Assembly (NCBI GenBank): GCA_023151185.1
Contig: JAKLJL010000002.1
Coordinates: 582,288-646,287, forward strand
DNA: 64,000 nucleotides
Direction of reading: 5' to 3'
From: Bacteroidota bacterium
GTDB lineage: Bacteria; Bacteroidota; JABWAT01
Shown: one piece after another, positions 10,771 through 30,543 of the stretch
How positions within the stretch are numbered: position 1 is the first letter of the stretch
How the letters are laid out: the number at the start of each line of letters is the position of its first letter
Notes under the pieces: generated by a model
What the model was told of the DNA's origin: nothing
Databases searched by the model: none
What the model saw: the letters and a program-made list of their open reading frames with translations, nothing else
Translations under genes and position numbers: made by a program

Positions 10771-10776
10771 TGTAAG

Positions 10777-12387: not shown

Positions 12388-12622
12388 GGCTGTCTTTGGG
12401 CGGGTAAAGAGAAACCCTGCCGGAAGAAGGATCCACTTCTTTCAGACTCGCCAGATGCTGAACCCTGAGTGTCCCCAAACCCGGAAGCTGGACGTCTTCG
12501 CCGGATAGAAGGGATTCCTTGATTGCAGTGTAAAATTGTCGGAGGACAAGGTCAACATCCGCCTCAGGAAGGTTGGTCTTGATTGCAATTTCCTGTACAA
12601 ATGTTTTTGAAAACATACTCAT
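12365..12622 (-). CDS. HU/IHF-family DNA-binding protein
   Basis: 85 aa. GEDVQLPGLGTLRVQH aligns with the HU consensus GDxVxLxGFGxFxVxxR. Confidence 0.7.
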   Translation of the reverse strand: MSMFSKTFVQEIAIKTNLPEADVDLVLRQFYTAIKESLLSGEDVQLPGLGTLRVQHLASLKEVDPSSGRVSLYPPKDSLEFIPES

Positions 12623-12627
12623 CCTGT

Positions 12628-14193
12628 TCAGAATTTAAAGGAAACACCAAAGGTTATTTGATTTGCTTCCCTGTTAAAACCGGGATAAACGAGATCCTTA
12701 TTATTTACGATAATCCTAATTTCACCGTAAAAATTCAATGTAGTAAAGTGAAAATCGTCAATTCTTAATAAAATATCACTGTAATCGGGCAGTTTCTTCT
12801 GTTTTTGGGGGTCTGTATACCTATTTGTGTGATAGCGGGCACGGGCAGAAATCCTGTTCTTTTGGTTTTCGGTCAGCCAGTCCAAATCCAGACCGGATGT
12901 AACGGCCGGTAAAAAAGGAACTGATTTGATTTTTCCAAAGAAAATTTCCTGACTGCCGTAAAGCCTGAGGACCAGTTCCGGGTTTAGATACCAGGAACAG
13001 GAAAGCGAAGCCTGGTGCGACGAAACCGTTACCCACTGTGTTGTCCCGGTTGTATCCGGATACAATCTGTCCTCTGATTCATGGTACAGAGTTCCCAATT
13101 TGACTATCCAGTGATCGGATGGAATCCATTCCAGAATATATTCAGCACGGTTGGTCTGATGGAGATTCAACGAGAAAGTTTTTCCGGGGTTAACCCAGAA
13201 AAATCCACCCGTGTAAAATTCTGGTGCCGGTAAAGACTGATAAAGCGTCCACTCCAGTTTATGGTGGAAATGACGGGTGTGCCCGAAGAGTTTTGCACTT
13301 CCCGAGGGCAGGTGGCGGATTGCCCCTGCATCATTGCGGTGAAAATAACCGCCCGCAACTTCAAGTGAGAACACCTCATTCCCTGCCTGAAAACCGGTTT
13401 CCGCCTTTCCTGCTCTGGAATCCGAACCTGACCGACCAGTTCCCTGCCAGCCTTCAACCCGGCTGATCCAGTATAAAAAAGATAAATCGAACCGGCTTTC
13501 AGCCAAAAGGCCTGCCGATCCACCCGAATTCTCTGACGGCCCCGAAGAAAAATAGTCGTGATAAAATCCATCAATCCGCCAGGAAGTTCCGTCCTCAAGC
13601 GGATCGCTTTTCACCTTTCCTTCAAGGCGGAGGGTTCTGTAAAGGGAGGTATCAATGGTGGACTGATGGGGTTGAATATCGGCATAGTCTAAACCGGCAG
13701 CCAGGGAATAGCTGGTTCCTGATGGGGTCATTCCGGTATTCAGCTGGCTGTTTCCCGTTATGAAGTCACCTCTGAACGTCTGGAGGCGGAAAGTCTTTTC
13801 TGTCTGGCGGTTGCCGAAAACTTCAAGCGTCCTGAACTGCCTGCTGCCAGGCGCCGTGTAAACAGCCCCCAGTTCACCATTATCAGAAAGGTGACTTCCC
13901 AGATAGAGAACCAGTTTGCTTTCCGGTTGAAAGTCGGGTTGACGGTAGGGCAGCAAATCGGACGGACCGTAAAGATCCAGCTCTGGGTTCAGCATGGAAA
14001 CCGGCTTGATTTCAGCCTTCCAGAAGGTAATTGGTACCGGCTTAAACGCCGGGCTGCCGGGTGGCTCCTTTCTGAAAACCTGAACAGAATCCGCTGTGCT
14101 CTGAGCCAGAACAGGTTCTGTCCCCAGCAGGAACCTAGCGGAAAAGAGCCCTGAGATCAGGAGAAACGGTATTTTTCGGGTACTTTTTGTCAT
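12628..14193 (-). CDS. Outer-membrane beta-barrel protein (unknown family)
   Basis: 521 aa. Signal peptide, alternating amphipathic beta-strand pattern, aromatic-rich, C-terminal ...GVSFKF (terminal Phe). Confidence 0.45.
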   Translation of the reverse strand: MTKSTRKIPFLLISGLFSARFLLGTEPVLAQSTADSVQVFRKEPPGSPAFKPVPITFWKAEIKPVSMLNPELDLYGPSDLLPYRQPDFQPESKLVLYLGSHLSDNGELGAVYTAPGSRQFRTLEVFGNRQTEKTFRLQTFRGDFITGNSQLNTGMTPSGTSYSLAAGLDYADIQPHQSTIDTSLYRTLRLEGKVKSDPLEDGTSWRIDGFYHDYFSSGPSENSGGSAGLLAESRFDLSFLYWISRVEGWQGTGRSGSDSRAGKAETGFQAGNEVFSLEVAGGYFHRNDAGAIRHLPSGSAKLFGHTRHFHHKLEWTLYQSLPAPEFYTGGFFWVNPGKTFSLNLHQTNRAEYILEWIPSDHWIVKLGTLYHESEDRLYPDTTGTTQWVTVSSHQASLSCSWYLNPELVLRLYGSQEIFFGKIKSVPFLPAVTSGLDLDWLTENQKNRISARARYHTNRYTDPQKQKKLPDYSDILLRIDDFHFTTLNFYGEIRIIVNNKDLVYPGFNREANQITFGVSFKF

Positions 14194-16891
14194 AGTCCTT
14201 AATCAGTTTCAGTGCGGCCTGTTTTTTCTTTTCCCTGACCAGTGATTGAACAGATAAAATCAGGATCTGATCCTCAATTTCACGGTCTTGCTGCCATTCG
14301 GTTCGATAAATTTCCAATTCTTTCTGGAGGTCTCCCGAGGATAGTTCCATCGCACGGATCTCCATTTTTTGCATGATTATTTTTTTCCGGAGCCGTTCAC
14401 TGAACTGGTTTTTTATCCGGAAATAATAGTCATCAAAGGCATCCCAACCGGCAGATTTCTGTGTAAAAAAAAGATCCTCCAGCAAGAGGGCTTCAAGAGA
14501 AGGAGAGATACTTTCTTCCCGCAAAGCTTCTTTCCTGAAAAACAGGGACAGAAGAGAATCCTTCCTGAAAGAATGGAACCGGTATAATCCCAAGTATAAC
14601 TGGAACCGGTCGCCGGGTGCTACAGGCCTTGATCCGTCATTAATCAGAATCTGAATCCGGGAAGTATCCAGCATTTCATATTCAGCCGGTGAAATCAACG
14701 TTCTGAGGTCAGAAATCCGGTCTGAAGGAACCCGGCCATCGTCCTTCCATTTCTGAAAATCCCGGGCTTTTGAAGTCAAAAAAAGTGACCGGATTACAAC
14801 CGGTTCTATCCATTCTTTATCCGGTGACAGATCCAGGCGCATCAGATTCTCGCCGGTTTTCTCCGGGTCAGGGCTTGCAGAGAGTAATTCCCGGAACAAA
14901 TCGGTTTTGTCGGGATCAATCCCGTTTTTCGCCAAAATCTGCGATTGGGAAGCAGGGATTCCTGAAGCCGCCAGTATAAAACAGCCACCATCACCAAAAT
15001 TTCGGAGAAGGTCCAGCAATGCCGGATTTTTCAGAACCGAAAGCACAGAATCATGGCCCAGAAACCGGATTCCGGTCTGCACGGAATAATGAAATGCCTG
15101 GGGCTCAGAGATCCTGAGCAGATTGCCGGCCAGCAGGTGTGTGGTCAGTTCCTTCCGCTTTCCGGAAAGTGTAGTTTCCACCGGGATAAGCCAGTTTTCG
15201 GCTTTGAACCCAAATTTTGACCGGTAATCCCGGATCCGGTTGTTCAGGTAAGCATAAGAACCTGTTGCGAATTCGGCCAGAATCTGCATCAACTCTACCG
15301 ACTCAGGAAAGAAGTCGGGGCTTAACCGGTTGAGAACCCGCAGGTATCCCAAAGCCAGATCCGGCCGGCCGGCATCCAGGGTCATTTTTGCCGCAGAAAA
15401 CATCATTCTGTTTTTTACTGAGTCGGATGCAGCGTACCGGATTTTTTTATCCAGAAGCGCAAGTCCGGTGCGTTGTTTCCCTGTCCTGAACAGGTTTTCT
15501 GATTGAATCAGATCGATATCATCATAATACCGGACGAAACGGTCACGGTAAAGCCGGATCCGTCTTTCGATGGAATCAGTCCAACCCAGGCGAATACAGG
15601 ATTCAAGCCCGGCCATAAAGGCGGGACCCTCGAGCCGGTGTCCCTTATAATCTGTCAGGAAATAGTCGAATTGCTGAATGGCCTCAGGATACTTTCCGGC
15701 TTTGAAAAGTGCAAAACCAGAATTATAAACCAACCCTGGCCAGGAGGCCTGCTGCCTTTTTTTATTGAATCCGGAAGCCGTCAGATAGGCCCTTCCGGCT
15801 TCCTTCCACCGGTTATTTTCAACGGCCACCTGCGCCACCTGAACCCAGAGTGAATCCAGGCTGAGCCCGGTGTCGGTTTCATCCGTTATCAGACTTAAAT
15901 CCCGTTCAAACAGATCCCAGCGATTCAATTTTAAGGCAGCCCAGAGACGGTGATTCAGGTTATACCGGTTGATTTCGGGTGAAAAGGTAAAAATCTGGAG
16001 ACGGGCCTCCAGAATCTGATCAATTTGCCCGGACTCTTTCCAGAGTTCAACAAAAAGGACTTTTTTAAAGGGTGCCAACCACGAATTGTCGCCGATTCGA
16101 TCAAGAATCTGCATGGCCCTGTTTTTTTGGTTTTCTTTCAGCAGGGCGTAAGCCAGCCTGAACCTGACAAAATCAATCTGGAAAGATCCCGGAAAAAGCT
16201 GGTCATACCGTCCCAGACTGATAATTGCATCCTTCCATAACCCGAGCCGGATGTAGGATTCAGAAACAATCAGAAGGCTCCGTTCCTTTTCATCCTGCCC
16301 AGTAATCAGTGGCTGAAGCAACAGGAGCTGATCAATGGCCCGGGCATACTGGCCAAGATGGTAATCGCAATCAGCAACGGACAGAGAAGCATAATTTCCG
16401 GACGGGGATTCCGGGTAGTGCTCAGAAAATCCCGAAAAAATCTGCCGGGCAGTTTCCCAGTTTCCCAGACGGGCGTGAATAAATCCTCTCAGTAAATAGG
16501 CGTGTTCAGACAGGTCTCCGCCCGGACCTGAACCAGCCGAATCGAGAAGGGAAAGTCCTTCGGTGAACTGATCGTAATCAATATAGGTCCGGGCAAGCCA
16601 GTAACTGATGGTAAAATTCCAGTCGCCGGTCGTTTTCCGGCGCAGTTCTGCCAGAAGTGGCCGTGAGTCCTGCAATCTACCCTGCTGAAGGTAAATTTGG
16701 GAAAGTTCCCACAACCAGACTGTACGTCTGGGGTGAACAGGATAGTGGTTCAGGTCAGCCCGCAATTGATGTTCGCTTTCAGCCCACAAACCGGAAGTAA
16801 AAAGGGGAGAATCAGGCGGGGGTAAAAACTGGGCCTTTCCGGTTCCGGCAAGAACGGTCATCAGAAAGACAAAAACCAGGACATTTTTCAT
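14135..16891 (-). CDS. Large TPR-repeat protein with signal peptide
   Basis: 918 aa. Signal peptide MKNVLVFVFLMTVLAGTGKAQ (no lipobox Cys) and many TPR-like repeats. Confidence 0.5.
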   Translation of the reverse strand: MKNVLVFVFLMTVLAGTGKAQFLPPPDSPLFTSGLWAESEHQLRADLNHYPVHPRRTVWLWELSQIYLQQGRLQDSRPLLAELRRKTTGDWNFTISYWLARTYIDYDQFTEGLSLLDSAGSGPGGDLSEHAYLLRGFIHARLGNWETARQIFSGFSEHYPESPSGNYASLSVADCDYHLGQYARAIDQLLLLQPLITGQDEKERSLLIVSESYIRLGLWKDAIISLGRYDQLFPGSFQIDFVRFRLAYALLKENQKNRAMQILDRIGDNSWLAPFKKVLFVELWKESGQIDQILEARLQIFTFSPEINRYNLNHRLWAALKLNRWDLFERDLSLITDETDTGLSLDSLWVQVAQVAVENNRWKEAGRAYLTASGFNKKRQQASWPGLVYNSGFALFKAGKYPEAIQQFDYFLTDYKGHRLEGPAFMAGLESCIRLGWTDSIERRIRLYRDRFVRYYDDIDLIQSENLFRTGKQRTGLALLDKKIRYAASDSVKNRMMFSAAKMTLDAGRPDLALGYLRVLNRLSPDFFPESVELMQILAEFATGSYAYLNNRIRDYRSKFGFKAENWLIPVETTLSGKRKELTTHLLAGNLLRISEPQAFHYSVQTGIRFLGHDSVLSVLKNPALLDLLRNFGDGGCFILAASGIPASQSQILAKNGIDPDKTDLFRELLSASPDPEKTGENLMRLDLSPDKEWIEPVVIRSLFLTSKARDFQKWKDDGRVPSDRISDLRTLISPAEYEMLDTSRIQILINDGSRPVAPGDRFQLYLGLYRFHSFRKDSLLSLFFRKEALREESISPSLEALLLEDLFFTQKSAGWDAFDDYYFRIKNQFSERLRKKIIMQKMEIRAMELSSGDLQKELEIYRTEWQQDREIEDQILILSVQSLVREKKKQAALKLIKDYDKKYPKNTVSPDLRALFR

Positions 16892-18378
16892 GGGCGGATA
16901 AACACATTGTAGGCAATTATCCCCAGGAAAACGGAAAGAGCAATACTGAAAAAGTTCACCGAGTCGTTATTAAACACCGTGTATCCCTTTACAATTCTGC
17001 CGGGTTCATTGCAGTGAGAGCCTTCCTCTGATTCCCTGCCGCAAATCCGGCAGGCGAATCTGACCTGGAAAGCAGATCCGAGAACGCTGTCAATCAGTGT
17101 TCCGGAAAAACCGGTTAAAGATATTAAAATCCAAAATTGCGCGGTTTTTTCAAAATAATAATCGGTCTGAAAATAAATCAGGGAGGAAATTAACGCGGCG
17201 CCGGCAAGACCGCCAAGGAGACCGGGAATTGAAATCCCGCCAGACCTCCCCTTTTCGATGGGATTAAAGGACAGGATATCAACCGGATTTCTCCGGCCAA
17301 ACAACTGCCCGATTTCAGTGCTCCAGGTATCTGCTGTGGCGGCGGCTACCGCAATAAGGAAAATTGCATAACTCCACGGCCACAGATTATTCATTGCAAC
17401 CAGAAACACCAGCAGCGCAGGTCCACCGTTGGCCCAGACCTGAGTTTGATTTCTTGGAGAACTTAATCCAGTCAATTCTCCCTTTTTCCTTCTGAAATAA
17501 TGGCTGATCAGAGTCAGAACGGAAGACAGAACAAAAAAGACCAGCATAGGAACCGTCCAGGCCCAACCACCCATTCCAAAAAGAATAAGTCCCATGAAAA
17601 ATACAGCCAGACTGCCGGAAAGTGACAAAAATCTGAACTTCCAGCTTATCCAGACAAAAGGAATCAACCCGGCTGCCACCATCCAGAAACGGGTAATATC
17701 AGAAGGGTCGATCAGAATATAATCAAGGAAAAGCGCACTGATAAGGGGAATTCCAAGATTATCGGTTCCGTTTGTCATCAGCAGTTCTGCAAGCGCCACC
17801 ATCAGACCGGTCAACCCTGCAATCTGAAAAAGTTCAAAGTAGGTAACCGGCGGAAGCTGTCCTGAAAACCCGGCAAACAGAATGATAAAGTACCCGGTGA
17901 TCATCATAACCAGAAAACCGTTGACCGATTTTCCTCTAGGCAAATCCTGAAACCGGGAGCCTTTTCCTCCCGGCTTTCCTAAAAAGGAGGCAAATGCATC
18001 GCCAAATCCCAGAATCAGCATGGATGCCTGCATTATGACCGGATCGCGTTCCCAATAGAAAAAACTAAGGACTGCAAAGGCGAGAGGAAAATAAATCACC
18101 CCTCTGGAAGCCTTATTGACAGAAAGAAACGGAAGCCAGGCAGGCCGGACGGAGGCAAGAAAATGAAGAAAAAAAAAGAGTCCGGCAAGCAGGATGACCG
18201 GAAATTTGTCCTGATAAAAATAAGGGGAAACAGCACAGGCCATTCCCCCAAGGATATGCAGATATTTCCGGCTGGTTTCCGGGAAAATCCAGTTTTTGGA
18301 TGCAGTAAAACTGAAAATGGCCTGAAGGAACAGAAAAAAGAGAAAGGTTACACCAAACCAAAACCAGTCAGATTGCAT
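16888..18378 (-). CDS. Fusion protein: CTP-dependent polyprenol/phytol kinase-like (VTE5/dolichol kinase family) N-terminal half + DUF92 (TMEM19/VTE6-like) C-terminal half
   Basis: N-terminal half GFGDAFASFLGKPGG...KSVNGF matches the GDxxAxxxG...KSxEG pattern of the dolichol/phytol kinase family. C-terminal half ATADTWSTEIG matches the DUF92 signature. Polytopic membrane protein. 4-nt overlap with the upstream TPR gene. Confidence 0.5.
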   Translation of the reverse strand: MQSDWFWFGVTFLFFLFLQAIFSFTASKNWIFPETSRKYLHILGGMACAVSPYFYQDKFPVILLAGLFFFLHFLASVRPAWLPFLSVNKASRGVIYFPLAFAVLSFFYWERDPVIMQASMLILGFGDAFASFLGKPGGKGSRFQDLPRGKSVNGFLVMMITGYFIILFAGFSGQLPPVTYFELFQIAGLTGLMVALAELLMTNGTDNLGIPLISALFLDYILIDPSDITRFWMVAAGLIPFVWISWKFRFLSLSGSLAVFFMGLILFGMGGWAWTVPMLVFFVLSSVLTLISHYFRRKKGELTGLSSPRNQTQVWANGGPALLVFLVAMNNLWPWSYAIFLIAVAAATADTWSTEIGQLFGRRNPVDILSFNPIEKGRSGGISIPGLLGGLAGAALISSLIYFQTDYYFEKTAQFWILISLTGFSGTLIDSVLGSAFQVRFACRICGRESEEGSHCNEPGRIVKGYTVFNNDSVNFFSIALSVFLGIIAYNVFIRP

Positions 18379-18382
18379 TCAG

Positions 18383-19324
18383 TCAGATTTTTAAGGTGAA
18401 TTGAAGGGCAGGAACGGAATATCCGGTTCCTGTCGGCAGACTGTTCAAAGATAACTTAACCTGATCGGTATGTAAACGGGCCTGCATGGCAGCATTGACA
18501 GCCGACACAGTATGGTTTACCAGGGTCAGGACGGCAAAAGTACTGGCGAGATTATGCATTTCATTGGCCCTGGTCCGGCTGTCACGGTAAGACCGGAAGG
18601 CCGGTGTCAGAAACTGCATATGACTCATTGGAAGACTGTTGTCATAATCATACCAACCCGGCATGAACTGTTCATACTTCCCGATCAGTTCATAATACTG
18701 CTGGGAATCATAACCGGGCAGGACATGTGAGAATTTAGCTCCGCCACCAAATGTAAATGTCATCTCCCTCTCGAGTGAATTCAATTCAGTCCACCATTCC
18801 CTGTTCCCGGGTGTCATATTGGGGTCTCCGTTGATTTTGTTTTTCAGTGCTACAGCAAGATCTTTTGCTTTCTGATCCTGGCCACCTCCAGAATCCTCGG
18901 CCCAATATATAAGGTAATCGGCATATTTACGGACACTCCACCCTTTAGCAGGGTCGTTGGCAACCTTCTGGTATGCTTTTTCTTTATTTGCGGCATCTTT
19001 GTCGAAATACAGGTAACTGCCAACCAAAACAATCTCTGCAGTAAAAAAGCCGATTGCCGACTTATAGGCTTCTGCATACCACTCACCGGTACCGGGAATG
19101 ACCGCAGAAAAAAAAGCCGCCTTCAGCGGACTTTTCTTTTCATCACTGAAAAAAGCCCAGGCTGAGGGTTGGGAATCCGAAATCCCCAGTTGGCTGTCCA
19201 GAAGCAGATTTCCGTACAGGGGTTGCAGATTCTCACCAGTCCGAGGCTCTGAAAGCGGCTGACCGGATGAGGCAGAAAAGTAAAAAATAAAAACAGAAAA
19301 GGAGAGTAATTTTAAAAAGTCCAT
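18383..19324 (-). CDS. Secreted hypothetical protein
   Basis: 313 aa with a signal peptide and no recognisable motif. Confidence 0.35.
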   Translation of the reverse strand: MDFLKLLSFSVFIFYFSASSGQPLSEPRTGENLQPLYGNLLLDSQLGISDSQPSAWAFFSDEKKSPLKAAFFSAVIPGTGEWYAEAYKSAIGFFTAEIVLVGSYLYFDKDAANKEKAYQKVANDPAKGWSVRKYADYLIYWAEDSGGGQDQKAKDLAVALKNKINGDPNMTPGNREWWTELNSLEREMTFTFGGGAKFSHVLPGYDSQQYYELIGKYEQFMPGWYDYDNSLPMSHMQFLTPAFRSYRDSRTRANEMHNLASTFAVLTLVNHTVSAVNAAMQARLHTDQVKLSLNSLPTGTGYSVPALQFTLKI

Positions 19325-22503: not shown

Positions 22504-22508
22504 GGGTG

Positions 22509-25500: not shown

Positions 25501-25532
25501 AGATAAAAAAAGCTCGGTCTGGCTTTATACAT
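22509..25532 (-). CDS. T9SS CTD cargo protein with M6 (InhA-like) metallopeptidase-like N-terminal domain
   Basis: 1007 aa. Signal peptide. The VIAFQVEFQDE N-terminal strand is typical of M6-domain proteins. The position homologous to HExxHxxGxPDxY reads TANFGNFLGLPDLY (aa 251-264). The C-terminal CTD is YSWPNPSKDGLVHFRILV...ILKVVLIR. Confidence 0.55.
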   Translation of the reverse strand: MYKARPSFFYLFLFCSSLVSAQLPVRLNPTPVSGEYSVIAFQVEFQDELVDGKDSDPFTEGTGRFVTTAPDTGFLDSYPREKTYFSKHLEFLKSYWERVSGGKISLSQLHVASEILVLPGKMRTYSAYKQTAAEGYSRLVSDFLAAAAAKPELADEIRPFYSGEKKTHFILFHAGMGKDINWGSILGGDPTPADISSIYLSPSSAIPFSPAEIYPGITLSNLSILPETLSRVVESYGKKVLISFGINGIMTANFGNFLGLPDLYNTSTGASVTGRFGLMDGYGIFNFNGFFPSPPNAWEQYQLGWITPEVKDISALPELKTINPGQPFFIHLGDKKYFLLETLHRNPNLEENGTTISYFDRGEAKTLPVSKDINGFYEYDQSLLKGIITDISNPWWVIPAGINEKEDTIRGGMLIWKINDGNLYSGMTPGEFSKLNSKEETRVLTLLEADGSQDIGQVYGSFTGGSGSEAGTIFDYWTDGNISPLYKGEFSAESVPSSNWEKQAQTGIQVKGFIRAGTGIQISFNYSAPANPVLISRKLLSLPEKVTGKIRSFYHQDSIWTVAVHAETVSLYQGSAAAGTWPISAKEWVSGFSNPASSGDTLFIAIPQFPAGIRVIQLLNGQISDALYTIPVLPGRNSDDWRLSGSLVFSSGSFYLPVQSKTDNNWFIARLKDGQLIPHSQLSDPSGFTDRIFFQQNGQWFSILGNKLTLSLGSAEGVLPHSEPYRSVTASSEDNQVVIQTQNGQFKTFLVGYSAPGSLELVNEKTGSTNRNLILNGPEDRYQFFISSDSLSVSGYYGNLQLEGFPVEMSQKITGIQMLESAGNLVLVLKSGQTWYTTPVHGYPNKTPLSAGINPSGLVSANGRVVSAQLLADSLSVDLVLLNGFFQGTDQNPGEALRVAGKSSVSRKSWVSQTPENEETVYSWPNPSKDGLVHFRILVPFTGTGKITLLDLGGQKVTDLSVSVQKNTETEITWNSGSAQSGMYFASVDLSGEGKSLTKILKVVLIR

Positions 25533-25545
25533 AATTTAAACCGGT

Positions 25546-26697
25546 TTACTCTAAAATATTTGAAAGATTCATTCCCAGGGTAACCCGAACTGTACCTGCC
25601 AGCGGATGAGATTCTTCGAAGGTTGAAATATAACTGAAGTCCACATTCAGGAAGGAATAGAGAATTCCCGCACCATAAGTCATGAATTTCCGGTTACCGG
25701 CCCGGCGGTCTTCGTAGAAAAATCCTGCCCTGAGAGATACGTATTCATCATAGACAAATTCACCGCCCAGCATCAGGTTTGCTTTGTTCAGTTCATTGAC
25801 AACTCCATCCTGGTACCAGGCCTTATAGATGGCCTGGTAAACCGGATACTTATGATCCTTGTCTTTGTTGGATACCAATAATTTTGCCATTTCAATATAG
25901 GTATCCAGATAATAGTATTCGTCATTGATCAGCCGGTATGCAAACCCAGTTCTGAATTTTGTAGGAAGCGGATCGGCCTGTGCCTCGTCAATATAAGTCA
26001 TTGAAGGACCGATATTGGTGATACTTGTGCCCCAGCGGAACCGGTCTGAAAGGTCGGCAACTTCATACCAGCTAAAAACTGAAGAATCATCACTGGTTAA
26101 CACTGACGGGACAGGGATTCCAAGCGAAAAACGGGTAGGATGATACTCAAAGGCAAGGTCAATCCCAAAGCCGCTTGCGATTCCCCGACCCTCTTCCTGA
26201 GCAGTACCGAACGGGCTTAACCGTGAATAAATAAACCGGCCACCAGTCCCGATACTCCAACTGTCAGAGACCGGTACACCATAAGAAACTCCAACCGCCA
26301 TTTCCCAGCTTAAAAACCGACCGAGTTCCTGTCCGGTCTGATCTGTCCTTACATTTTCCCCTAAATTTAAAAAGGTAATATGTGCGCCCAGGGACCCCAG
26401 TTCTTCATCCAGCGGGTAAACAAATGCCAGATAATCATAAAACAAATCTCCGGTTAGCTGAGGTAACCAGTTGGAGTGAGTGATACTGACTTTCATTTCC
26501 TGAATGCGGTAAAGTGCTGCCGGATTCCAGAAAACGGTGTTCGGATCCTTACCGGCCATCGCAACACCCCCTTCTCCGAAACCGCTTGACCGGCTGTCTG
26601 GGGCAATTTGCAGGAATGGGACCGCTGTTGTGGTAACCTGTGAAAAAACGGCTGTTGACCAAAGGAAAAAAACGAATAAGGTCAGTTTGGCTTTCAT
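25546..26697 (-). CDS. porV: T9SS outer-membrane protein PorV (LptO)-like, FadL-family beta-barrel
   Basis: 383 aa. Signal peptide. N-terminus VPFLQIAPDSRSSGFGEGGVA...NPAAL fits the PorV/PorQ family pattern. It lies immediately downstream of porU, the conserved porU-porV arrangement. Confidence 0.55.
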   Translation of the reverse strand: MKAKLTLFVFFLWSTAVFSQVTTTAVPFLQIAPDSRSSGFGEGGVAMAGKDPNTVFWNPAALYRIQEMKVSITHSNWLPQLTGDLFYDYLAFVYPLDEELGSLGAHITFLNLGENVRTDQTGQELGRFLSWEMAVGVSYGVPVSDSWSIGTGGRFIYSRLSPFGTAQEEGRGIASGFGIDLAFEYHPTRFSLGIPVPSVLTSDDSSVFSWYEVADLSDRFRWGTSITNIGPSMTYIDEAQADPLPTKFRTGFAYRLINDEYYYLDTYIEMAKLLVSNKDKDHKYPVYQAIYKAWYQDGVVNELNKANLMLGGEFVYDEYVSLRAGFFYEDRRAGNRKFMTYGAGILYSFLNVDFSYISTFEESHPLAGTVRVTLGMNLSNILE

Positions 26698-26730
26698 TTA
26701 AAAATCTCTCCGGTAAGGTTTGAGAATTGT

Positions 26731-29700
26731 TTAGTTATACTTCATTAATTTTATGATTTCGGTTTTTGTTTTCCCGGATCCGGTTTCTTTAAGGACCAGT
26801 CGGGCCAGATAAATGCCATTTGCAACAGGATCTCCGTCAGAATCCAGCCCATCCCAAACCAGCAGGCCCCCGTTGTTTGTTTCCGTTGGGTGCTGTTTAA
26901 GTGTTCGGATGAGAAGACCGTTAAGTGTATAAATTGACGCTGTTATCTGAACTTTTGCATCGGGTAAATTTTGGTTGTAAAAAAAACGTACCGTTTTCCC
27001 GAACGGGTTTGGATAGGGATACAGGTTGCTGACTGAAAAATCAGTTCCTTCTGTTACAACAAAGCGGATTGTAGATTCTGCACCATTGTTGAAAGAATCC
27101 CAAACCTTTAGTTTGAATTCGTGGGGACCTGCTGAAACTGTACTCAGCGGATACTCAATGGTTCCGGTTGTAAAGTCGTTCAGATTGGCTGTAAAATAAG
27201 GACTCATGTCAATGGCACCCGTAAGATCATTATCGAGAATACCTAAAAGCTGGTGGCCTATCCCAAGCCCGGTAGTATTAATACCGGATGAATCAGAAAT
27301 GACAGCCTTCAGAAAACCGGAATTTGCAACCCGCTGACCATCAGAAAAAGAGGAATCATTGATAAAAAGGGAAACCGAAGGCGGTAAGGTATCGGTAAGA
27401 GCTCCGGTACCACCTGATATGTACTGGATCCGGGGAGAGAGAATTAATCCGGCATCTTTTTCGTTCCATAAAAACCCGGAAACTCTGGCTGGAGACCGGC
27501 TTGGCGTTACGTCGGATGGAACCATAAATTTCATTGAAAACTGACCATCCGAAACAGAAACAAGACCCTTAAAGATATCTGATCCTTCATTTTGATATTC
27601 GGTCACATCTGTCCCTGGTTTTGAAACCCATTCCGGAACCGTAACCGTTACCGGTTCTCCTGCTAGCCGGATTAAGGCAGACCCGGAAAACTGGTCTGCG
27701 TTCCCAGCGGGAAGTTCCGAGAGTCTTCCAGAAAGTCTGCCAACAGACTGAATCTGAAATTGAATCAGGCTATCCTGGGTGAGTTCAGCTTCCTTATTCA
27801 GAAGGCGGCCTCTGCCTTCAGGAATCAGAAGGCGGGTGGCTGGGTCTGCAAGCAGGGAAAATTTATTCACATTTTCATCTGTGTAGAATTTTCCGGTTTT
27901 AACATCAAGTTCAGAAAAATGCTGCTTGGTCAGAGTATAAACTTCGCCAAGTGATAAATTTTTCCCGGTATCATTCTTTTTAAACAGGTTTGAAAACAAA
28001 TAATAATTCAGCGCAAGATTATAAGGACCGTCCAGTCTTCTGTCTGTATAAACGAGCCGCGTGGTGGTAAACATTCCGATTACACCGGTTTCTTTTTGTG
28101 TCACCAGAAGTTCTGCGGCACTTTGCTCATCAGGATCATCATATTTTCCGAAATCACAGGTAGCGGTGATCAGAAACGGAAGTTTTGAGGAATTGGTTAG
28201 TCTCGGAAGGAAGGCTCCGATTTCCAGAATCCGTTCATGAGTCCAGACTTTTGTGTTTCCATGCCCGGAGTAATTAATAACTACACTGCCGGAATTAAAA
28301 TAATTGATCAGGGAATTTGCAGCTTCTGGTTTTCTTCTTCCTTCACTGGTTGTAATGGTCGGGAACGAAACGGAATATAATTTTCTGACCGAAAGGTAGG
28401 GTGGTATGAGTGTAGAAACGACTTCTGCATTGTAGGTGTGCAGATCGTAATCATCACCGCTGGAAGTCAGACCATCATCTGCAACCATGGTGACTTTCAT
28501 CCGCCAGTCCCCTTTTTCTGAATTGAGATCATAGTTGATGAGCTTATCAACCATCTGATCTGCCTCTGCAACCGTTACAACCGGAAGCCGGCCGATACCA
28601 ACCCGGAATTGGCCATCAGAGGTTACCCGGCTGAAATCATCATCCGAGCAAAACGTAGAACGCTGAAGTAAGGATTCCTGACTTTCAAATGTAGGAATTA
28701 GTCCCGGAAAAGATTTCTTTCCGCCAATTTCTTTGAAATCATAGGATGCATCCCCCAGCAGAAGCACATTTTTCAGCACTCCTGACCCTGCAGAATAAAC
28801 CTGCCCGATGAATTTCCGAATAGCCTCCGGATTTGCCTTTCCCCCTGAAAAATGAGTATAGATATCTTCGGTGGTTACAACGGCCCCGTTCCAGTTTTGG
28901 GCAACCCGGTGAGCCAGAAGCCGTTTTGCAGGTAAGGTAAACTGCGGAGGAGTAATTATCACGTAATCAATCCCGGCAGCAAACGCATCCGGAACAGTAG
29001 AGACCCCCAAGCGTTCCCAGCTTAATGATCCGGCGGAAATAACACCGTCTGTTTTGTGTACTGCAAAGAAACGGTTTGCTTTTTCCGGACTCAAAATAGA
29101 CCCGAAACGGATATCACCACCAGAAATTGAAGTCTGGGATACAACTTTGGGAGAAAGCGGATTGTCAAGATTAAACACCAAAATACCAGAATCCCGAAAA
29201 CCGCCTATCCTGAAATTCACCGGGCCACCGGATGAAGGTTGAAAAAAATCGATTTCAGTTTTGGAGGCTAAAAGGGACCTGCTGTACTGCAGGGTGAACC
29301 AATCCAGCCACCCGGTAGCAGTACCATTGCTGACCAGGGCAATTTCAATCGAGGCCCTGTCCTGATTGAGTTTTGAAATCTGTCCGGAAACCGTTCGCTC
29401 ACGGGCAACCTTGTCTTCATAATTAGCCGGATTTGAATAGCCGGTGATAATATCCTTAACAACATACTGGCCGGATTCCAGTATAGATAGTCTTGCAAGA
29501 GATGTCGAAGGGTATTGCGCAAGAACGGAGCCCCTGAACAGTACCGGTGATCCGGTTACATAATCAGGAAGTTTCTGAGTCCAGATCTGGGTGCTGTTTG
29601 CCGAAATTCTGGGTCCGACCCAAAGGGTTCCCGATTTCAGCAGATTCTCAGATTCCGGATTCTCCCACACCATAAACTGAGCTGTACCGGTTTCGGAAAC

Positions 29701-30543
29701 CCCTTCGATGAGAGTCCCTGGAACACTTTCCATTCTTTTTCCGGGCGAAGTCCCAAATCCCAGAAATAAATACTGGTTTTCAGAGTAAATATCATCATAC
29801 CAGGAAAATGCCCGGGAAGTAGAATCAAAATATATTCCCTGCTGAATATCAGAATAGAAATACCAGACCTGAGAGTCACTCCAAACATCCGGTTCGGTAG
29901 TTTCAGAAAACAGGGGAATTTCGACTGTTCCAGGTCCTGACGGCCGGGGGCCTGAACTCGAAAATACCCTTAGATTTTTTGGATTTTCTGTCTTTGAAAA
30001 TCCAAATGAGATCAGATCTGAGGCTGTAAGTTTAAAAATACCGGAGCGCAGCGGTTTCAACCTGACCCAAAGCCCGCTTTCAAACAGAGATTCGGCTGCT
30101 GTTGTTTTCTGAAATGCAATCCTTGAAGATTCCGGCTGCCTTTTCCCGGTGCCGGAAAGAGTAAATTTTGTACAAATAAGAACATCGTTTCCGGAAAACA
30201 CACCAATTTGGCGCCGTTTCCAGAATCGGAAATCAGGCTCGGAAGTGACGGTAACTGCCTGTGGTCTGGTACCGGGATCCGAAATTGAAAAAGAAACAAA
30301 GGACCCCCTTTCGGGAATGACTTCATCAGACGGATCAGACTCAGATCCCACGTAAATAATTTCACCGGAAGGGGAAACCATCAGCCGGGGATTTGACAAT
30401 GTCCAGACAGACTTGTCTCCTGCATCTCTTAGCTTGAAAAGTTTTGGAAGGTCCGGACGGATATCTGCATACCTGAAGTTTTGGGCTGTAAGAAGCCCGG
30501 AAGGCACCAAAAAAAGCAGCAAATAAAACAGGGTTTTAAGCAT
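26731..30543 (-). CDS. porU: T9SS C-terminal signal peptidase/sortase PorU (C25 gingipain-like cysteine peptidase) with its own CTD
   Basis: About 1270 aa from the Met at 30543 (signal peptide MLKTLFYLLLFLVPSGLLTAQ). The ORF track extends to 30699. C25 catalytic His in NYSGHGN and Cys in ITATCDFG. The C-terminal CTD is YPYPNPFGKTVRFFYNQ...IIKLMKYN. Confidence 0.7.
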   Translation of the reverse strand: MLKTLFYLLLFLVPSGLLTAQNFRYADIRPDLPKLFKLRDAGDKSVWTLSNPRLMVSPSGEIIYVGSESDPSDEVIPERGSFVSFSISDPGTRPQAVTVTSEPDFRFWKRRQIGVFSGNDVLICTKFTLSGTGKRQPESSRIAFQKTTAAESLFESGLWVRLKPLRSGIFKLTASDLISFGFSKTENPKNLRVFSSSGPRPSGPGTVEIPLFSETTEPDVWSDSQVWYFYSDIQQGIYFDSTSRAFSWYDDIYSENQYLFLGFGTSPGKRMESVPGTLIEGVSETGTAQFMVWENPESENLLKSGTLWVGPRISANSTQIWTQKLPDYVTGSPVLFRGSVLAQYPSTSLARLSILESGQYVVKDIITGYSNPANYEDKVARERTVSGQISKLNQDRASIEIALVSNGTATGWLDWFTLQYSRSLLASKTEIDFFQPSSGGPVNFRIGGFRDSGILVFNLDNPLSPKVVSQTSISGGDIRFGSILSPEKANRFFAVHKTDGVISAGSLSWERLGVSTVPDAFAAGIDYVIITPPQFTLPAKRLLAHRVAQNWNGAVVTTEDIYTHFSGGKANPEAIRKFIGQVYSAGSGVLKNVLLLGDASYDFKEIGGKKSFPGLIPTFESQESLLQRSTFCSDDDFSRVTSDGQFRVGIGRLPVVTVAEADQMVDKLINYDLNSEKGDWRMKVTMVADDGLTSSGDDYDLHTYNAEVVSTLIPPYLSVRKLYSVSFPTITTSEGRRKPEAANSLINYFNSGSVVINYSGHGNTKVWTHERILEIGAFLPRLTNSSKLPFLITATCDFGKYDDPDEQSAAELLVTQKETGVIGMFTTTRLVYTDRRLDGPYNLALNYYLFSNLFKKNDTGKNLSLGEVYTLTKQHFSELDVKTGKFYTDENVNKFSLLADPATRLLIPEGRGRLLNKEAELTQDSLIQFQIQSVGRLSGRLSELPAGNADQFSGSALIRLAGEPVTVTVPEWVSKPGTDVTEYQNEGSDIFKGLVSVSDGQFSMKFMVPSDVTPSRSPARVSGFLWNEKDAGLILSPRIQYISGGTGALTDTLPPSVSLFINDSSFSDGQRVANSGFLKAVISDSSGINTTGLGIGHQLLGILDNDLTGAIDMSPYFTANLNDFTTGTIEYPLSTVSAGPHEFKLKVWDSFNNGAESTIRFVVTEGTDFSVSNLYPYPNPFGKTVRFFYNQNLPDAKVQITASIYTLNGLLIRTLKQHPTETNNGGLLVWDGLDSDGDPVANGIYLARLVLKETGSGKTKTEIIKLMKYN

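What the first reader, a model, noticed from the sequence alone, without database searches (positions are those of the whole stretch)
12628..30543. porU-porV head an 18-kb, eight-gene, tightly coupled minus-strand gene chain that extends well beyond known T9SS components
All eight genes between 30543 and 12628 are co-directional. Four of the seven junctions overlap: 4 nt ATGA at 16891/16888, 13 nt at 19324/19312, 59 nt at 14193/14135, and the porV/cargo junction. Downstream of the T9SS attachment-complex genes porU (C25 sortase) and porV come six more genes. In order they are a CTD cargo with a degenerate M6 domain, a peptidase-Omp85 fusion, a secreted unknown, a polyprenol-kinase/DUF92 fusion, a 918-aa TPR protein and a 521-aa outer-membrane barrel. 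None of the last five is a described T9SS component, yet the coupling suggests co-expression and possibly a shared cell-surface function. That function might be cargo processing, lipid-linked modification, or a novel outer-membrane complex.
Basis: partly seen in the sequence, partly recalled or inferred. Interest (0 to 1): 0.65.

Follow-up and report, generated by a model that had tools for sequence, protein, structure and literature searches.

The report
Conserved five-gene porU-porV cassette plus neighbours
The 18-kb gene chain is real, but only its first five genes (porU, porV, a dead M6-like protease cargo, a protease-propeller-Omp85 barrel protein and a DUF5683-like protein) stay together across about 160 distantly related loci, mostly labelled Ignavibacteria-type. 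The last three genes are neighbours only in this organism's own small clade.

Summary
The eight minus-strand genes exist as described, and NCBI's own annotation calls them the same way. PorU and PorV are confirmed.

Two details are wrong:
- The porV/cargo junction is a 13-nt gap, not an overlap, so 3 of 7 junctions overlap, not 4.
- The tight chain does not stop at 12628. An HU gene follows 5 nt later, then an HU-SPOR gene.

Tight packing is also the norm in this window: the median same-strand gap is 4 nt both inside and outside the chain. It is therefore no evidence of shared function.

Synteny splits the chain.
- porU-porV-M6i-"MAbar"-"g313" keeps its order and strand. With MAbar as anchor, all five genes are present in 49 of the 54 loci that have room. 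With M6i as anchor in metagenomes, porV is present in 67/68 and MAbar in 39/45. The flanks of the block vary.
- The DUF92 fusion, the 918-aa TPR protein and the 521-aa barrel adjoin the block only in the window's own clade, and in none of about 160 distant loci. The TPR protein and the barrel have no detectable relatives outside that clade.

MAbar has an intact HEFTH…E zinc site, a TolB-like propeller and an Omp85-type barrel. Neither it nor g313 has a curated family.

Verdict: partly supported. This is a new variant of a known kind, of moderate interest.

The parts
26731..30543 (-). porU, the T9SS C25-type sortase (1270 aa; signal peptide ...LLTAQ|NF)
   Evidence: NCBIfam NF033707 scores 755.9 bits (cut-off 420). 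Pfam Peptidase_C25 scores 276.6 bits over the full profile. NCBI names it PorU, MCK6601489. It lies upstream of porV in 58/60 loci anchored on MAbar and 40/43 anchored on M6i.
25546..26697 (-). porV, the outer-membrane PorV/PorQ-family barrel (383 aa)
   Evidence: NF033709 PorV_fam scores 276.7 bits (cut-off 90). The PorV equivalog NF033710 scores 236.5, just under its cut-off of 250. Pfam PorV scores 106.2. It is adjacent in 63/64 and 67/68 distant loci.
22509..25532 (-). M6i, a T9SS type-A CTD cargo with a catalytically dead M6 (InhA-like) metalloprotease domain (1007 aa)
   Evidence: NF052323 T9SSA_dep_M6i scores 414.8 bits, below its cut-off of 600. The positional orthologue in L003 scores 908.1. 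TIGR04183 (CTD) scores 26.1 (cut-off 23). There is no HExxH in the window protein or in 14 homologues. The site reads A-N-F-G-N-F-LGLPDLY.
19312..22503 (-). MAbar: signal peptide, then a gluzincin-like domain (HEFTH at 127-131, E187), a TolB/PD40 propeller (about 315-590), a POTRA-like beta-alpha-alpha-beta-beta unit (about 640-700) and a 16-strand Omp85-type barrel (about 713-1052)
   Evidence: H127, E128, H131 and E187 are invariant in 16 sequences. The profile matches TolB in PDB at 1e-15. The AF2 model has pLDDT 73.9. Foldseek finds TolB, BamA (8xnb, TMt 0.58; 9n2e), TamA (8us2) and a BAM complex (9hg5). Several homologues carry PF01103. NCBI calls it a hypothetical protein.
18383..19324 (-). 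g313, a secreted DUF5683-like protein (313 aa) and the fifth gene of the conserved block
   Evidence: Pfam DUF5683 scores 25.2 bits (cut-off 26.7) in the window protein. 11 of 12 family members match, best E 4.3e-11. Motifs are strongly conserved. There is no PDB relative. It follows MAbar in 61/69 loci anchored on MAbar and 36/43 anchored on M6i.
16888..18378 (-). Integral-membrane fusion: an N-terminal CTP_transf_1-like (phytol/dolichol-kinase-like) half plus a C-terminal DUF92 (VTE6/COG1836 family) half. Neighbour only in the window's clade.
   Evidence: Pfam DUF92 scores 194 bits for residues 241-481. The N-terminal half matches PF01148 only at E = 0.33, over residues 5-196. About 8 hydrophobic segments. 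It is adjacent to the block only in L001/L002, L004 and L084, and in 0 of 160 distant loci.
14135..16891 (-). TPR918, a secreted TPR protein with no lipobox. Restricted to the window's clade.
   Evidence: Several TPR Pfam families match. PorW/SprE NF052312 scores only 40.9 bits (cut-off 250). Only 8 full-length homologues were found, all in the window's clade. The weak TPR hits sit in an unrelated ExbBD context.
12628..14193 (-). bar521, a secreted predicted 22-strand outer-membrane barrel without a plug. Restricted to the window's clade.
   Evidence: No Pfam or NCBIfam hit. Only 2 hits in the 90% cluster database and 8 in 1.84 billion representatives. The AF2 model has pLDDT 67.9, 22 strands, and residues 1-87 disordered. 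Foldseek's best matches are TonB-dependent transporter barrels, TMq about 0.6. The C-terminus is ...GVSFKF.
12365..12622 (-). HU-like DNA-binding protein (85 aa).
   Evidence: Pfam Bac_DNA_binding scores 49.7 bits. It is called independently on several contigs.
10777..12387 (-). HU-like N-terminus plus SPOR-domain protein, the last gene of the co-directional run
   Evidence: Pfam SPOR scores 46.1 bits. Independent calls give 525 aa starting 10 nt after HU.
30684..31028 (-). HIT-family gene, 140 nt upstream of porU on the same strand. A flank, not part of the cassette.
   Evidence: Pfam HIT scores 94.5 bits. It is syntenic only in the close relatives L001 and L004.

Best explanation
The chain has two parts.

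**Part A, 18383..30543: a conserved five-gene cassette, porU-porV-M6i-MAbar-g313.**
- From established T9SS knowledge, PorV takes CTD-bearing cargo from the SprA/Sov translocon. PorU then cuts off the CTD and attaches the cargo to the surface.
- M6i is itself a type-A CTD cargo whose zinc site is destroyed. I infer that it acts as a surface-bound scaffold or binding subunit, not as an enzyme.
- MAbar is an outer-membrane protein with a 16-strand Omp85-type barrel. It carries an apparently active gluzincin domain and a TolB-like propeller.
- Propeller-gated peptidases generally act on peptides or unfolded chains. I therefore infer that MAbar, with its DUF5683-like partner g313, trims or clears T9SS-related polypeptides at the outer membrane: cleaved CTDs, stalled cargo or misfolded cargo.
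- It is open whether the protease faces the periplasm, as Omp85 N-terminal domains usually do, or is exported as in type Vd.

**Part B, 10777..18378: neighbours only in the window's clade.**
- These genes are the DUF92 fusion, TPR918, bar521, HU and HU-SPOR.
- The DUF92 fusion probably phosphorylates an isoprenoid alcohol twice. This rests on its VTE5-like and VTE6-like halves.
- TPR918 and bar521 probably form a periplasmic TPR plus outer-membrane barrel pair of unknown substrate.
- All of these genes may still be co-transcribed with part A in this organism, but there is no evidence that they function with T9SS.

**What is shown:** gene identities, domain architecture, active-site status and synteny statistics.
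**What is inferred:** all the protein roles beyond PorU and PorV.
For: **Anchors.** PorU and PorV are confirmed by curated HMMs.

**Synteny anchored on MAbar** (80 species-representative genomes, 31-35% identity to the window protein). Among loci with enough flank:
- M6i is present in 67/69.
- porV is present in 63/64.
- porU is present in 58/60.
- g313 is present in 61/69.
- All five are present in 49/54, in the same order and on the same strand.

**Synteny anchored independently on M6i** (80 metagenome contigs):
- porV is present in 67/68.
- porU is present in 40/43.
- MAbar is present in 39/45.
- g313 is present in 36/43.

**Flanks of the block vary.** They include der, an LptF/G-like gene, upp, nth, an HD-domain gene and glgA. 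None occupies more than about 21 of 72 loci.

**T9SS genes cluster nearby in some loci.**
- porZ and a GT2 gene lie upstream in L003.
- A sprA-like 2058-aa ORF lies 2-3 genes downstream in 11 loci.

**Proteins of the block.**
- MAbar's HEFTH and E187 are invariant. M6i lacks HExxH in all 15 sequences checked.
- The MAbar model and fold matches show a TolB-like propeller plus a BamA/TamA-like barrel.
- g313 belongs to a well-conserved family.

**Part B.**
- DUF92, TPR918 and bar521 are adjacent only in L001/L002, L004 and L084. The flanking glgA, HIT, HU, SPOR and ispE genes are syntenic there too.
- They are adjacent in none of 160 distant loci.
- TPR918 and bar521 have no relatives outside the window's clade.
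- In the relatives, gaps of 117-196 nt open before the TPR gene, and a gap of 142 nt before the barrel gene.
- Tight junctions are the norm in this window.
Against: - No transcript data exist, so operon boundaries are unknown. In this window every junction from porU to SPOR is 33 nt or less, so all ten genes may be co-transcribed.
- Conserved adjacency shows linkage, not mechanism. No experiment ties MAbar or g313 to T9SS.
- In 5-6 of 45 loci anchored on M6i, MAbar and g313 are absent downstream. In L106 and L116 a GT2 gene follows instead. In one locus, L078, a MAbar homologue stands alone. MAbar and g313 are therefore not obligatory partners.
- The window's M6i and PorV fall below their equivalog cut-offs (414.8 against 600; 236.5 against 250).
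- The window MAbar does not hit PF01103 at E <= 0.01. Profile comparison with the window's TamL-like barrel was not significant. Omp85 membership therefore rests on a model of medium confidence (pLDDT 73.9), on homologues' Pfam hits and on a motif read by eye.
- The taxonomic survey is limited to the best 80 hits of each scan. Classical Bacteroidia were not examined.
Confidence: 0.7

Rival explanations
1. All eight genes (or all ten) form one operon that encodes a single extended T9SS-related cell-surface system. In it, the DUF92 fusion supplies lipid-linked carriers for cargo anchoring, and TPR918 with bar521 forms a new outer-membrane complex.
For: - All junctions are 33 nt or less, and three overlap.
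- Seven of the eight proteins have Sec signal peptides and the eighth is an integral membrane protein, so all are envelope proteins.
- The whole order is kept in relatives with MAbar identity of 50-66% and TPR identity down to 35%.
- Glycosyltransferase genes do sit next to porU or M6i in some Ignavibacteria loci, so glycan genes can accompany the cassette.
Against: - DUF92, TPR918 and bar521 are adjacent in 0 of 160 distant loci that keep the five-gene block.
- In the close relatives the unrelated flanks (glgA, HIT, HU, SPOR, ispE) are equally conserved, so this is ordinary local synteny.
- Intergenic gaps of 117-196 nt open before the TPR gene in the relatives, and a gap of 142 nt before the barrel gene.
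- The same tight packing links HU and SPOR genes to the chain and is the window-wide norm.
- DUF92 belongs to a family whose characterised member is plant VTE6 (PMC9782597). From my own knowledge the family is widespread outside T9SS-bearing organisms.
- TPR918 does not reach PorW/SprE (40.9 against a cut-off of 250).
Confidence: 0.1
2. Only porU-porV-M6i is a T9SS unit. MAbar and g313 are an outer-membrane biogenesis or quality-control module: a BamA/BamB-like 'WD40-Omp85' with a protease. They merely share an envelope-gene operon with porUV and have no specific role in type IX secretion.
For: - Heinz & Lithgow (PMC4104836) catalogued a WD40-Omp85 subfamily and likened it to a BamA-BamB fusion.
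- About 13% of loci anchored on M6i lack MAbar and g313 downstream.
- A MAbar homologue occurs alone in L078.
- The window also carries BamG-like and TamL-like genes, so outer-membrane biogenesis genes are common in this region.
Against: The order M6i-MAbar-g313 is kept in about 87-97% of loci across deep divergence while both flanks turn over. Such persistence usually reflects functional coupling. Pairing a dead protease cargo with a live protease next to it suggests a shared substrate or complex.
Confidence: 0.17
3. There is no functional signal at all. The arrangement is an accident of a compact genome with long co-directional gene runs.
For: Junction statistics inside and outside the chain are indistinguishable. 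Runs of 8-12 co-directional genes fill the window.
Against: Chance cannot explain the same five genes in the same order in about 90% of about 100 informative loci at 27-40% protein identity with varying flanks.
Confidence: 0.03

Closest known systems
T9SS attachment complex PorU-PorV(-PorZ-PorQ) of Porphyromonas gingivalis and Flavobacterium johnsoniae
   Same: porU and porV are adjacent and co-directional, and both match the curated PorU and PorV-family models. In L003 a porZ gene lies just upstream. The next gene encodes a CTD-bearing protein.
   Different: Three further genes (M6i, MAbar, g313) are locked to porU-porV in Ignavibacteria-type lineages. None of them is on the published component lists (about 20 proteins; PMC8754138 abstract). 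From my own knowledge, the P. gingivalis and F. johnsoniae porU-porV loci lack them. That was not tested here.
NCBIfam NF052323, 'T9SS-dependent M6-like inactivated metalloprotease'
   Same: The window protein aligns over residues 30-557 at 414.8 bits. It has a type-A CTD and no HExxH. It sits where the full-scoring member (908 bits) sits in L003.
   Different: It scores below the 600-bit equivalog cut-off, so it is a divergent member (25-26% identity to the Ignavibacteria members). No publication on the family was found.
'WD40-Omp85' subfamily of the Omp85/TpsB superfamily (Heinz & Lithgow 2014, PMC4104836)
   Same: A TolB-like beta-propeller sits N-terminal to an Omp85-type barrel, and the function is unknown.
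   Different: MAbar has an additional, invariant HExxH...E gluzincin domain ahead of the propeller, and a conserved position after porU-porV-M6i. Neither is mentioned in that paper's text. Whether MAbar falls inside their cluster was not tested.
Type Vd autotransporters (PlpD, FplA): enzyme passenger, one POTRA, Omp85 barrel
   Same: The order of parts is the same: an N-terminal enzyme, a single beta-alpha-alpha-beta-beta unit (DSSP 640-700), then a 16-strand barrel.
   Different: The passenger is a metalloprotease plus propeller, not a patatin lipase. Surface exposure is untested. The POTRA assignment rests on the secondary-structure pattern of a model of medium confidence.
VTE5 (phytol kinase) and VTE6 (phytyl-phosphate kinase, COG1836/DUF92)
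   Same: The C-terminal half is a clear DUF92 domain at 194 bits. VTE6 was identified through COG1836 genes of photosynthetic prokaryotes (PMC9782597). The N-terminal half has a GDAFASFLGK motif that resembles the CTP_transf_1/phytol-kinase signature; I read this by eye and from my own knowledge.
   Different: The N-terminal match to PF01148 is not significant (E = 0.33). TIGR00297 is below its cut-off (91 against 206). The substrate is unknown, and nothing in the window points to photosynthesis.
TonB-dependent transporter barrels such as BtuB and FhuA (compared with bar521)
   Same: The model has 22 strands, and the best fold matches have TMq about 0.6.
   Different: There is no plug domain and no TonB box. 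No Pfam or NCBIfam TBDT match exists. Residues 1-87 are predicted to be disordered. The family is restricted to one small clade.

Membership tests
T9SS sortase PorU (NF033707) | Curated equivalog-domain HMM at or above its cut-off | tested here: met
   755.9 bits against a cut-off of 420, covering residues 206-1319 of the long ORF.
T9SS sortase PorU (NF033707) | Peptidase C25 catalytic domain | tested here: met
   PF01364 scores 276.6 bits over profile positions 1-374 of 374.
T9SS sortase PorU (NF033707) | Own C-terminal CTD-like domain | tested here: inconclusive
   TIGR04183 scores 19.2 (cut-off 23) and FlgD_ig scores 18.8 (cut-off 27) at residues 1229-1304.
PorV (NF033710) / PorV-PorQ family (NF033709) | HMM at or above its cut-off | tested here: inconclusive
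   The family model scores 276.7 against a cut-off of 90 and is met. The PorV equivalog scores 236.5 against 250 and narrowly misses, matching in two stretches. PorQ scores only 90.4 against 220. The position next to porU fits PorV.
T9SS-dependent M6-like inactivated metalloprotease (NF052323) | Equivalog HMM at or above its cut-off | tested here: not met
   414.8 bits against a cut-off of 600. The positional orthologue in L003 scores 908.1. The window protein is a divergent relative and not a member by NCBI's rule.
T9SS-dependent M6-like inactivated metalloprotease (NF052323) | Type A CTD sorting signal | tested here: met
   TIGR04183 scores 26.1 against a cut-off of 23 at residues 924-1002.
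T9SS-dependent M6-like inactivated metalloprotease (NF052323) | M6 fold retained but the HExxH zinc site lost | tested here: met
   TIGR03296 scores 58.8 bits. There is no HExxH in the window protein or in 14 homologues. The downstream LGLPDL motif is retained.
Omp85/TpsB superfamily (MAbar C-terminus) | 16-strand barrel with the Omp85 fold | tested here: met
   The AF2 model shows about 16 strands at 713-1052. Foldseek matches BamA (8xnb, TMt 0.58; 9n2e), TamA (8us2) and a BAM complex (9hg5). Model confidence is medium, pLDDT 73.9.
Omp85/TpsB superfamily (MAbar C-terminus) | Sequence match to PF01103 or to BamA models | tested here: inconclusive
   The window protein has no hit at E <= 0.01. 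Several homologues carry PF01103. The L003 homologue hits BamA NF058613 at E = 3.8e-4. hhalign against the window's TamL-like protein gave E = 0.08. A loop-6-like MRGY at 926-929 is conserved. Reading it as the Omp85 RGF/Y motif comes from my own knowledge.
Omp85/TpsB superfamily (MAbar C-terminus) | POTRA domain before the barrel | tested here: inconclusive
   DSSP shows a beta-alpha-alpha-beta-beta pattern at 640-700. There is no POTRA Pfam hit.
Gluzincin / Peptidase MA clan (MAbar N-terminus) | HExxH plus a downstream Glu ligand, conserved | tested here: met
   HEFTH at 127-131 and E187, within WLAEGTA, are invariant in 16 sequences at 34-66% identity.
Gluzincin / Peptidase MA clan (MAbar N-terminus) | Pfam Peptidase_MA_2 at or above gathering score | tested here: not met
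   22.7 bits against a cut-off of 32.4. Many homologues carry PF13485 in precomputed hits.
Type Vd autotransporter (PlpD-like) | Patatin-like passenger that is exported to the surface | tested here: not met
   The passenger is a metalloprotease plus propeller, and no patatin hit exists. Surface export cannot be tested with these tools.
DUF5683 (PF18935) (g313) | Pfam HMM at or above gathering score | tested here: inconclusive
   The window protein scores 25.2 against a cut-off of 26.7. 11 of 12 family members match at E <= 0.01, best 4.3e-11. Only the first 63 or so of the 151 profile positions are covered in the window protein.
DUF92 / COG1836 / VTE6 family | Pfam DUF92 at or above gathering score | tested here: met
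   194 bits against a cut-off of 27.5, residues 241-481. TIGR00297 scores 91.1 against 205.85 and is not met.
Phytol/dolichol kinase (CTP_transf_1, PF01148) (N-terminal half of the DUF92 fusion) | HMM match | tested here: not met
   E = 0.33 and 11.2 bits against a cut-off of 24, although the alignment spans residues 5-196 against profile positions 24-216. The motif resemblance was read by eye only.
PorW/SprE (NF052312) (TPR918) | Equivalog HMM at or above its cut-off, and a lipoprotein signal | tested here: not met
   40.9 bits against a cut-off of 250. There is no Cys in the first 30 residues.
TonB-dependent transporter (bar521) | 22-strand barrel plus N-terminal plug and TonB box | tested here: not met
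   The barrel fold is similar, TMq about 0.6. There is no plug: residues 1-87 are disordered, and there are no Plug or TonB_dep_Rec hits.
Single operon (all eight genes) | Co-directional, short junctions, no internal terminator or promoter, one transcript | tested here: inconclusive
   Co-directionality and junctions of 33 nt or less are met. The consensus scans found only intragenic sites, with promoter-like sites at background rate. The Bacteroidetes-type promoter motif occurs only before glgA. Transcript evidence cannot be obtained here.

The most novel reading that the evidence does not exclude
MAbar and g313 are previously unrecognised, lineage-specific components of the type IX secretion attachment and processing machinery. 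MAbar would be an Omp85-anchored, propeller-gated active zinc protease. With a DUF5683-like partner and the dead-protease cargo M6i, it would work beside PorU/PorV to mature cargo or to clear cleaved CTDs and stalled substrates. That would be the first Omp85-family protein and the first dedicated second protease assigned to T9SS.
Probability: 0.35. Interest if true: 0.7.

Novelty: new variant of a known kind. Interest (0 to 1): 0.45.

Why it matters
T9SS has been dissected almost entirely in Porphyromonas and Flavobacterium. Its make-up in the other Bacteroidota-related classes (Ignavibacteria, Kryptonia and this unnamed clade) is essentially unstudied.

A five-gene block that persists across about 160 loci supplies two concrete candidates for new accessory components. 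They can be tested genetically.
- MAbar is a hypothetical protein to NCBI in this genome. Its homologues are mislabelled 'biopolymer transporter Tol'.
- g313 is an extended DUF5683-like protein.

The block also gives a functional context to the orphan 'WD40-Omp85' architecture, and to the NCBIfam M6i family, for which no paper was found.

The result also guards against over-reading. In this compact genome, tight gene junctions carry no functional information. Three of the eight genes should not be annotated as T9SS-linked.

Tried and rejected
- **Sigma-70 promoter and intrinsic-terminator scan of 12000-31500.** Promoter-like sites were at the shuffled background rate (19 against 21.4). Terminator-like sites were more frequent than in the shuffles but all intragenic. 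The scan is not informative, and the sigma-70 consensus may not apply to this lineage.\n- **Bacteroidetes-type promoter pattern TTTG-N17-23-TAnnTTTG.** There was one match in the window, before glgA, and none inside the chain. That is no better than chance (2.3 expected).\n- **Literature searches.** I searched PorU+PorV+Ignavibacteria, PorU2/PorV2/'M6-like', DUF5683, and T9SS distribution. Nothing describes the cassette. A DUF92 search with word-start matching returned only DUF92x noise.\n- **PDB sequence searches.** M6i and the g313 profile gave nothing. The MAbar profile gave only the propeller.\n- **Word-index homologue search for bar521.** It gave 2 hits. A full phmmer against 1.84 billion representatives gave 8. 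The family really is tiny, so its context outside the window's clade could not be studied.\n- **Distant TPR918 hits (P0131-P0137).** They turned out to be generic TPR similarity in an ExbB/ExbD context. I rejected them as orthologues.\n- **hhalign of the MAbar profile against the window's TamL-like Omp85.** The result was not significant.\n- **The afdb50 fold library.** It was unavailable, so a taxonomic spread from AFDB annotations could not be obtained.\n- **Rfam, tRNA and repeat scans.** Nothing was found in or near the chain.\n- **PorU2/PorV2 paralogue idea.** I considered that the window's porU and porV might be the NCBIfam paralogues PorU2 and PorV2. I rejected this: they score 99 against 450 and 37.6 against 325, while the canonical models score 755.9 and 276.7.

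Full report
**1. What is in the sequence**

All eight proteins, with the same lengths, are in NCBI as consecutive accessions MCK6601482-89 from a 'Bacteroidetes bacterium' MAG. There they are annotated as:
- PorU
- PorV/PorQ family protein
- T9SS type A sorting domain-containing protein
- hypothetical protein
- hypothetical protein
- DUF92 domain-containing protein
- tetratricopeptide repeat protein
- hypothetical protein

The junctions are +33, +13, +5, -13, +4, -4 and -59 nt. I read the ATGA overlap at 16891/16888 directly. Independent gene calls on other contigs reproduce the 59-nt overlap.

Two details of the observation are wrong.
- The porV/cargo junction is TAA-13 nt-ATG, so three junctions overlap, not four.
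- The tight chain does not stop at 12628. An 85-aa HU gene (12365..12622) starts 5 nt after the barrel gene. An HU-SPOR gene follows about 10 nt later.

A HIT gene precedes porU by 140 nt on the same strand.

**2. Is the coupling special?**

No. Using the longest-ORF gene set of the whole window, the 29 same-strand junctions outside the chain have a median of 4 nt. Thirteen of them overlap and 19 are at most 35 nt. Inside the chain the median is 4.5 nt. The window consists of co-directional runs of 8-12 genes. Tight packing is a property of this genome and cannot carry the functional inference.

Other scans added nothing:
- The sigma-70 and terminator scan gave only intragenic sites, with promoter-like sites at background level.
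- A Bacteroidetes-type promoter pattern occurs only before glgA.
- There are no Rfam families, tRNAs or notable repeats.

**3. Gene identities**

*PorU.* NF033707 scores 755.9 bits (cut-off 420), and the C25 domain is matched in full.

*PorV.* PorV_fam scores 276.7 (cut-off 90). The PorV equivalog scores 236.5, just under its cut-off of 250.

*The cargo, M6i.*
- NF052323, 'T9SS-dependent M6-like inactivated metalloprotease', scores 414.8 bits, below its cut-off of 600.
- The M6 domain model TIGR03296 scores 58.8.
- The type-A CTD model scores 26.1 (cut-off 23).
- HExxH is absent from the window protein and from 14 homologues, while the following LGLPDL motif is kept.

*The 1063-aa protein, here called MAbar.*
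- Its HEFTH at 127-131 and E187 (within WLAEGTA) are invariant across 16 sequences.
- Its central region matches TolB at 1e-15.
- An AF2 model (pLDDT 73.9) shows four parts. An alpha/beta protease domain spans 30-310 and a propeller spans 315-590. A beta-alpha-alpha-beta-beta unit spans 640-700, and about 16 barrel strands span 713-1052.
- Foldseek finds TolB, and also BamA, TamA and BAM-complex chains.

*The 313-aa protein, here called g313.*
- It has a signal peptide.
- Its family has strongly conserved motifs: KKSP..AG..S..PGAGE.Y, QQYYELIGKY and RGKANDYY.
- 11 of 12 members hit Pfam DUF5683.
- No structure or paper was found.

*The 496-aa protein.*
- It is a polytopic membrane protein.
- It has a clear DUF92 half at 194 bits.
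- The N-terminal half matches CTP_transf_1 only at E = 0.33.
- DUF92/COG1836 is the VTE6 phytyl-phosphate kinase family (PMC9782597). The equation of the Pfam family with the COG is from my own knowledge.

*The 918-aa protein, TPR918.*
- It is a secreted TPR protein.
- It is not PorW/SprE (40.9 against a cut-off of 250).

*The 521-aa protein, bar521.*
- It has no family hit.
- It models as a 22-strand barrel after an 87-residue disordered N-terminus (pLDDT 67.9).
- Its closest folds are TonB-dependent transporter barrels, but it has no plug.

All seven secreted proteins have Gln right after the likely signal-peptidase site. This fits the Bacteroidetes 'Q-rule' (PMC5837995 abstract).

**4. The decisive test: gene neighbourhoods**

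*Anchored on MAbar.* MAbar has more than 1,700 homologues, full-length at about 35% identity and mostly labelled Ignavibacteria. A scan of one genome per species with a MAbar alignment returned 80 loci, each with up to ±10 kb of flank where the contig allowed. I compared all window proteins against the ORFs of these loci with blastp. Counting only loci whose contig extends far enough:

| Gene | Present / loci with room |
|---|---|
| M6i | 67/69 |
| porV | 63/64 |
| porU | 58/60 |
| g313 | 61/69 |
| all five | 49/54 |

Order and strand were always those of the window.

*Anchored on M6i.* A second, independent scan of metagenome contigs used an M6i alignment:

| Gene | Present / loci with room |
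|---|---|
| porV | 67/68 |
| porU | 40/43 |
| MAbar | 39/45 |
| g313 | 36/43 |

*Flanks.* Outside the block the neighbours change: der/EngA, an LptF/G-like gene, upp, nth, an HD-domain gene and glgA. None occupies more than about 21 of 72 loci.

*Variations on the block.*
- An extra small gene sits between M6i and MAbar in 17 loci.
- A GT2 gene replaces MAbar and g313 in a minority of loci, including L106 and L116.
- porZ and a GT2 gene lie upstream in L003.
- A sprA-like giant ORF lies 2-3 genes downstream in 11 loci.

In L003 the PorU, PorV and M6i homologues all pass their NCBIfam cut-offs (963, 257.9 and 908 bits). MAbar and g313 have no NCBIfam family.

*The last three genes.* The DUF92 fusion, TPR918 and bar521 were adjacent to the block only in four loci from the window's own clade: L001/L002, L004 and L084. 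MAbar identity there is 50-66% and TPR identity goes down to 35%. They were adjacent in none of the 160 distant loci. In those close relatives the unrelated flanks (glgA, HIT, HU, SPOR, ispE) are equally syntenic. Gaps of 117-196 nt appear before the TPR gene, and a gap of 142 nt before the barrel gene.
- TPR918 has only 8 full-length homologues, all in the window's clade. Weaker TPR hits lie in an unrelated ExbBD context.
- bar521 has 8 relatives among 1.84 billion representatives.

**5. Interpretation**

The chain is a composite.

*Part A, porU to g313.* This is a conserved cassette. PorU and PorV act as established for T9SS. The roles below are inferred, not shown.
- M6i is a CTD cargo with a destroyed active site. 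It may be a surface scaffold or binding subunit.
- MAbar is an outer-membrane-embedded Omp85-type protein with an apparently active gluzincin behind a TolB-like propeller. Propeller-gated peptidases usually admit only peptides or unfolded chains. My preferred mechanism is therefore that MAbar, with g313, trims or clears T9SS-related polypeptides (cleaved CTDs, stalled cargo) at the outer membrane.
- Topology is open. The protease may face the periplasm, as Omp85 N-terminal domains do, or be surface-exposed, as type Vd passengers are.

*Part B.* The DUF92 fusion, TPR918, bar521, HU and SPOR are neighbours only in the window's clade. They may be co-transcribed here but have no demonstrated link to T9SS.

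**6. Comparison with what is known**

The nearest known entities are:
- the PorU/PorV attachment complex;
- the NCBIfam M6i family, which is curated although I found no paper on it;
- the 'WD40-Omp85' subfamily catalogued without a function by Heinz & Lithgow (PMC4104836);
- type Vd autotransporters, for the order of parts;
- VTE5/VTE6, for the DUF92 fusion.

Published T9SS component lists (about 20 proteins; PMC8754138 abstract) contain no Omp85-family protease and no DUF5683-like protein.

**7. Verdict**

It holds for two of the five 'extra' genes and fails for three.
- Novelty: a new variant of a known kind. This is a T9SS porU-porV locus with two undescribed, conserved accessory genes in Ignavibacteria-type lineages.
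- Interest is moderate, 0.45.

Limits:
- There are no transcript or experimental data.
- The structure models are of medium confidence.
- The surveys are restricted to the best 80 hits of each scan.
- Classical Bacteroidia were not examined.

Noticed in passing
window 12365..12622 (-) and 10777..12387 (-): An 85-aa HU-like gene sits 5 nt after the barrel gene. A protein with an HU-like N-terminus, a long Pro/Glu-rich linker, a TM segment and a C-terminal SPOR domain follows it. This HU + HU-SPOR pair is conserved in the clade (L001, L084).
   Followed up: partly
window 34450..35685 (+), 33187..34446 (+), 40571..42820 (-): A BamG-family-like protein (205 bits, cut-off 250) is preceded by a 419-aa secreted protein with no NCBIfam family hit. 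A TamL-like Omp85 lipoprotein (341 bits, cut-off 400) lies nearby. The window is therefore rich in outer-membrane biogenesis genes besides the porU chain.
   Followed up: no
window: N-termini of the genes at 30543, 26697, 25532, 22503, 19324, 16891 and 14193: All seven secreted proteins of the chain have Gln immediately after the likely signal-peptidase site (…TAQ|N, FS|QV, SA|QL, FA|QP, SG|QP, KA|QF, LA|QS). Many g313 homologues from Ignavibacteria loci do too. This fits the 'Q-rule' described for Bacteroidetes (PMC5837995).
   Followed up: no
L010 16900..23073 (+) and 10 other loci: A sprA/sov-like ORF of more than 2000 aa lies 2-3 genes downstream of the five-gene block in 11 Ignavibacteria loci. 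I recognised it by its sequence only and did not test it with an HMM.
   Followed up: no
L003 9342..9995 (+) and 16 other loci: A gene of about 217-222 aa, lipoprotein-like with a weak FlgD_ig hit, is inserted between M6i and MAbar in 17 loci. It is absent from the window.
   Followed up: partly
L003 1..810 (+); L106 12979..14079 (+); L116 12908..14011 (+): Glycosyltransferase family 2 genes flank the cassette in some lineages. In L003 one lies upstream of porU together with porZ. In L106 and L116 one lies directly after M6i in place of MAbar and g313.
   Followed up: partly
window 31077..31108 (+): The only match in the window to the Bacteroidetes promoter pattern TTTG-N-TAnnTTTG lies just before glgA. 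It overlaps the GTG start of the longest ORF, so the real glgA start is probably the downstream Met (MAKPASVLYV).
   Followed up: no
protein P0143: A 2824-aa protein matches residues 134-179 of bar521 in 11 separate stretches. A short bar521 segment therefore resembles a repeat unit of a giant protein.
   Followed up: no
window 51443..54073 (-): An 876-aa ORF has no NCBIfam match at E <= 1e-5.
   Followed up: no
L078 about 9974..13070 (+): One Ignavibacterium locus carries a full-length MAbar homologue with none of porU, porV, M6i or g313 within ±10 kb. This is probably a stand-alone paralogue.
   Followed up: no
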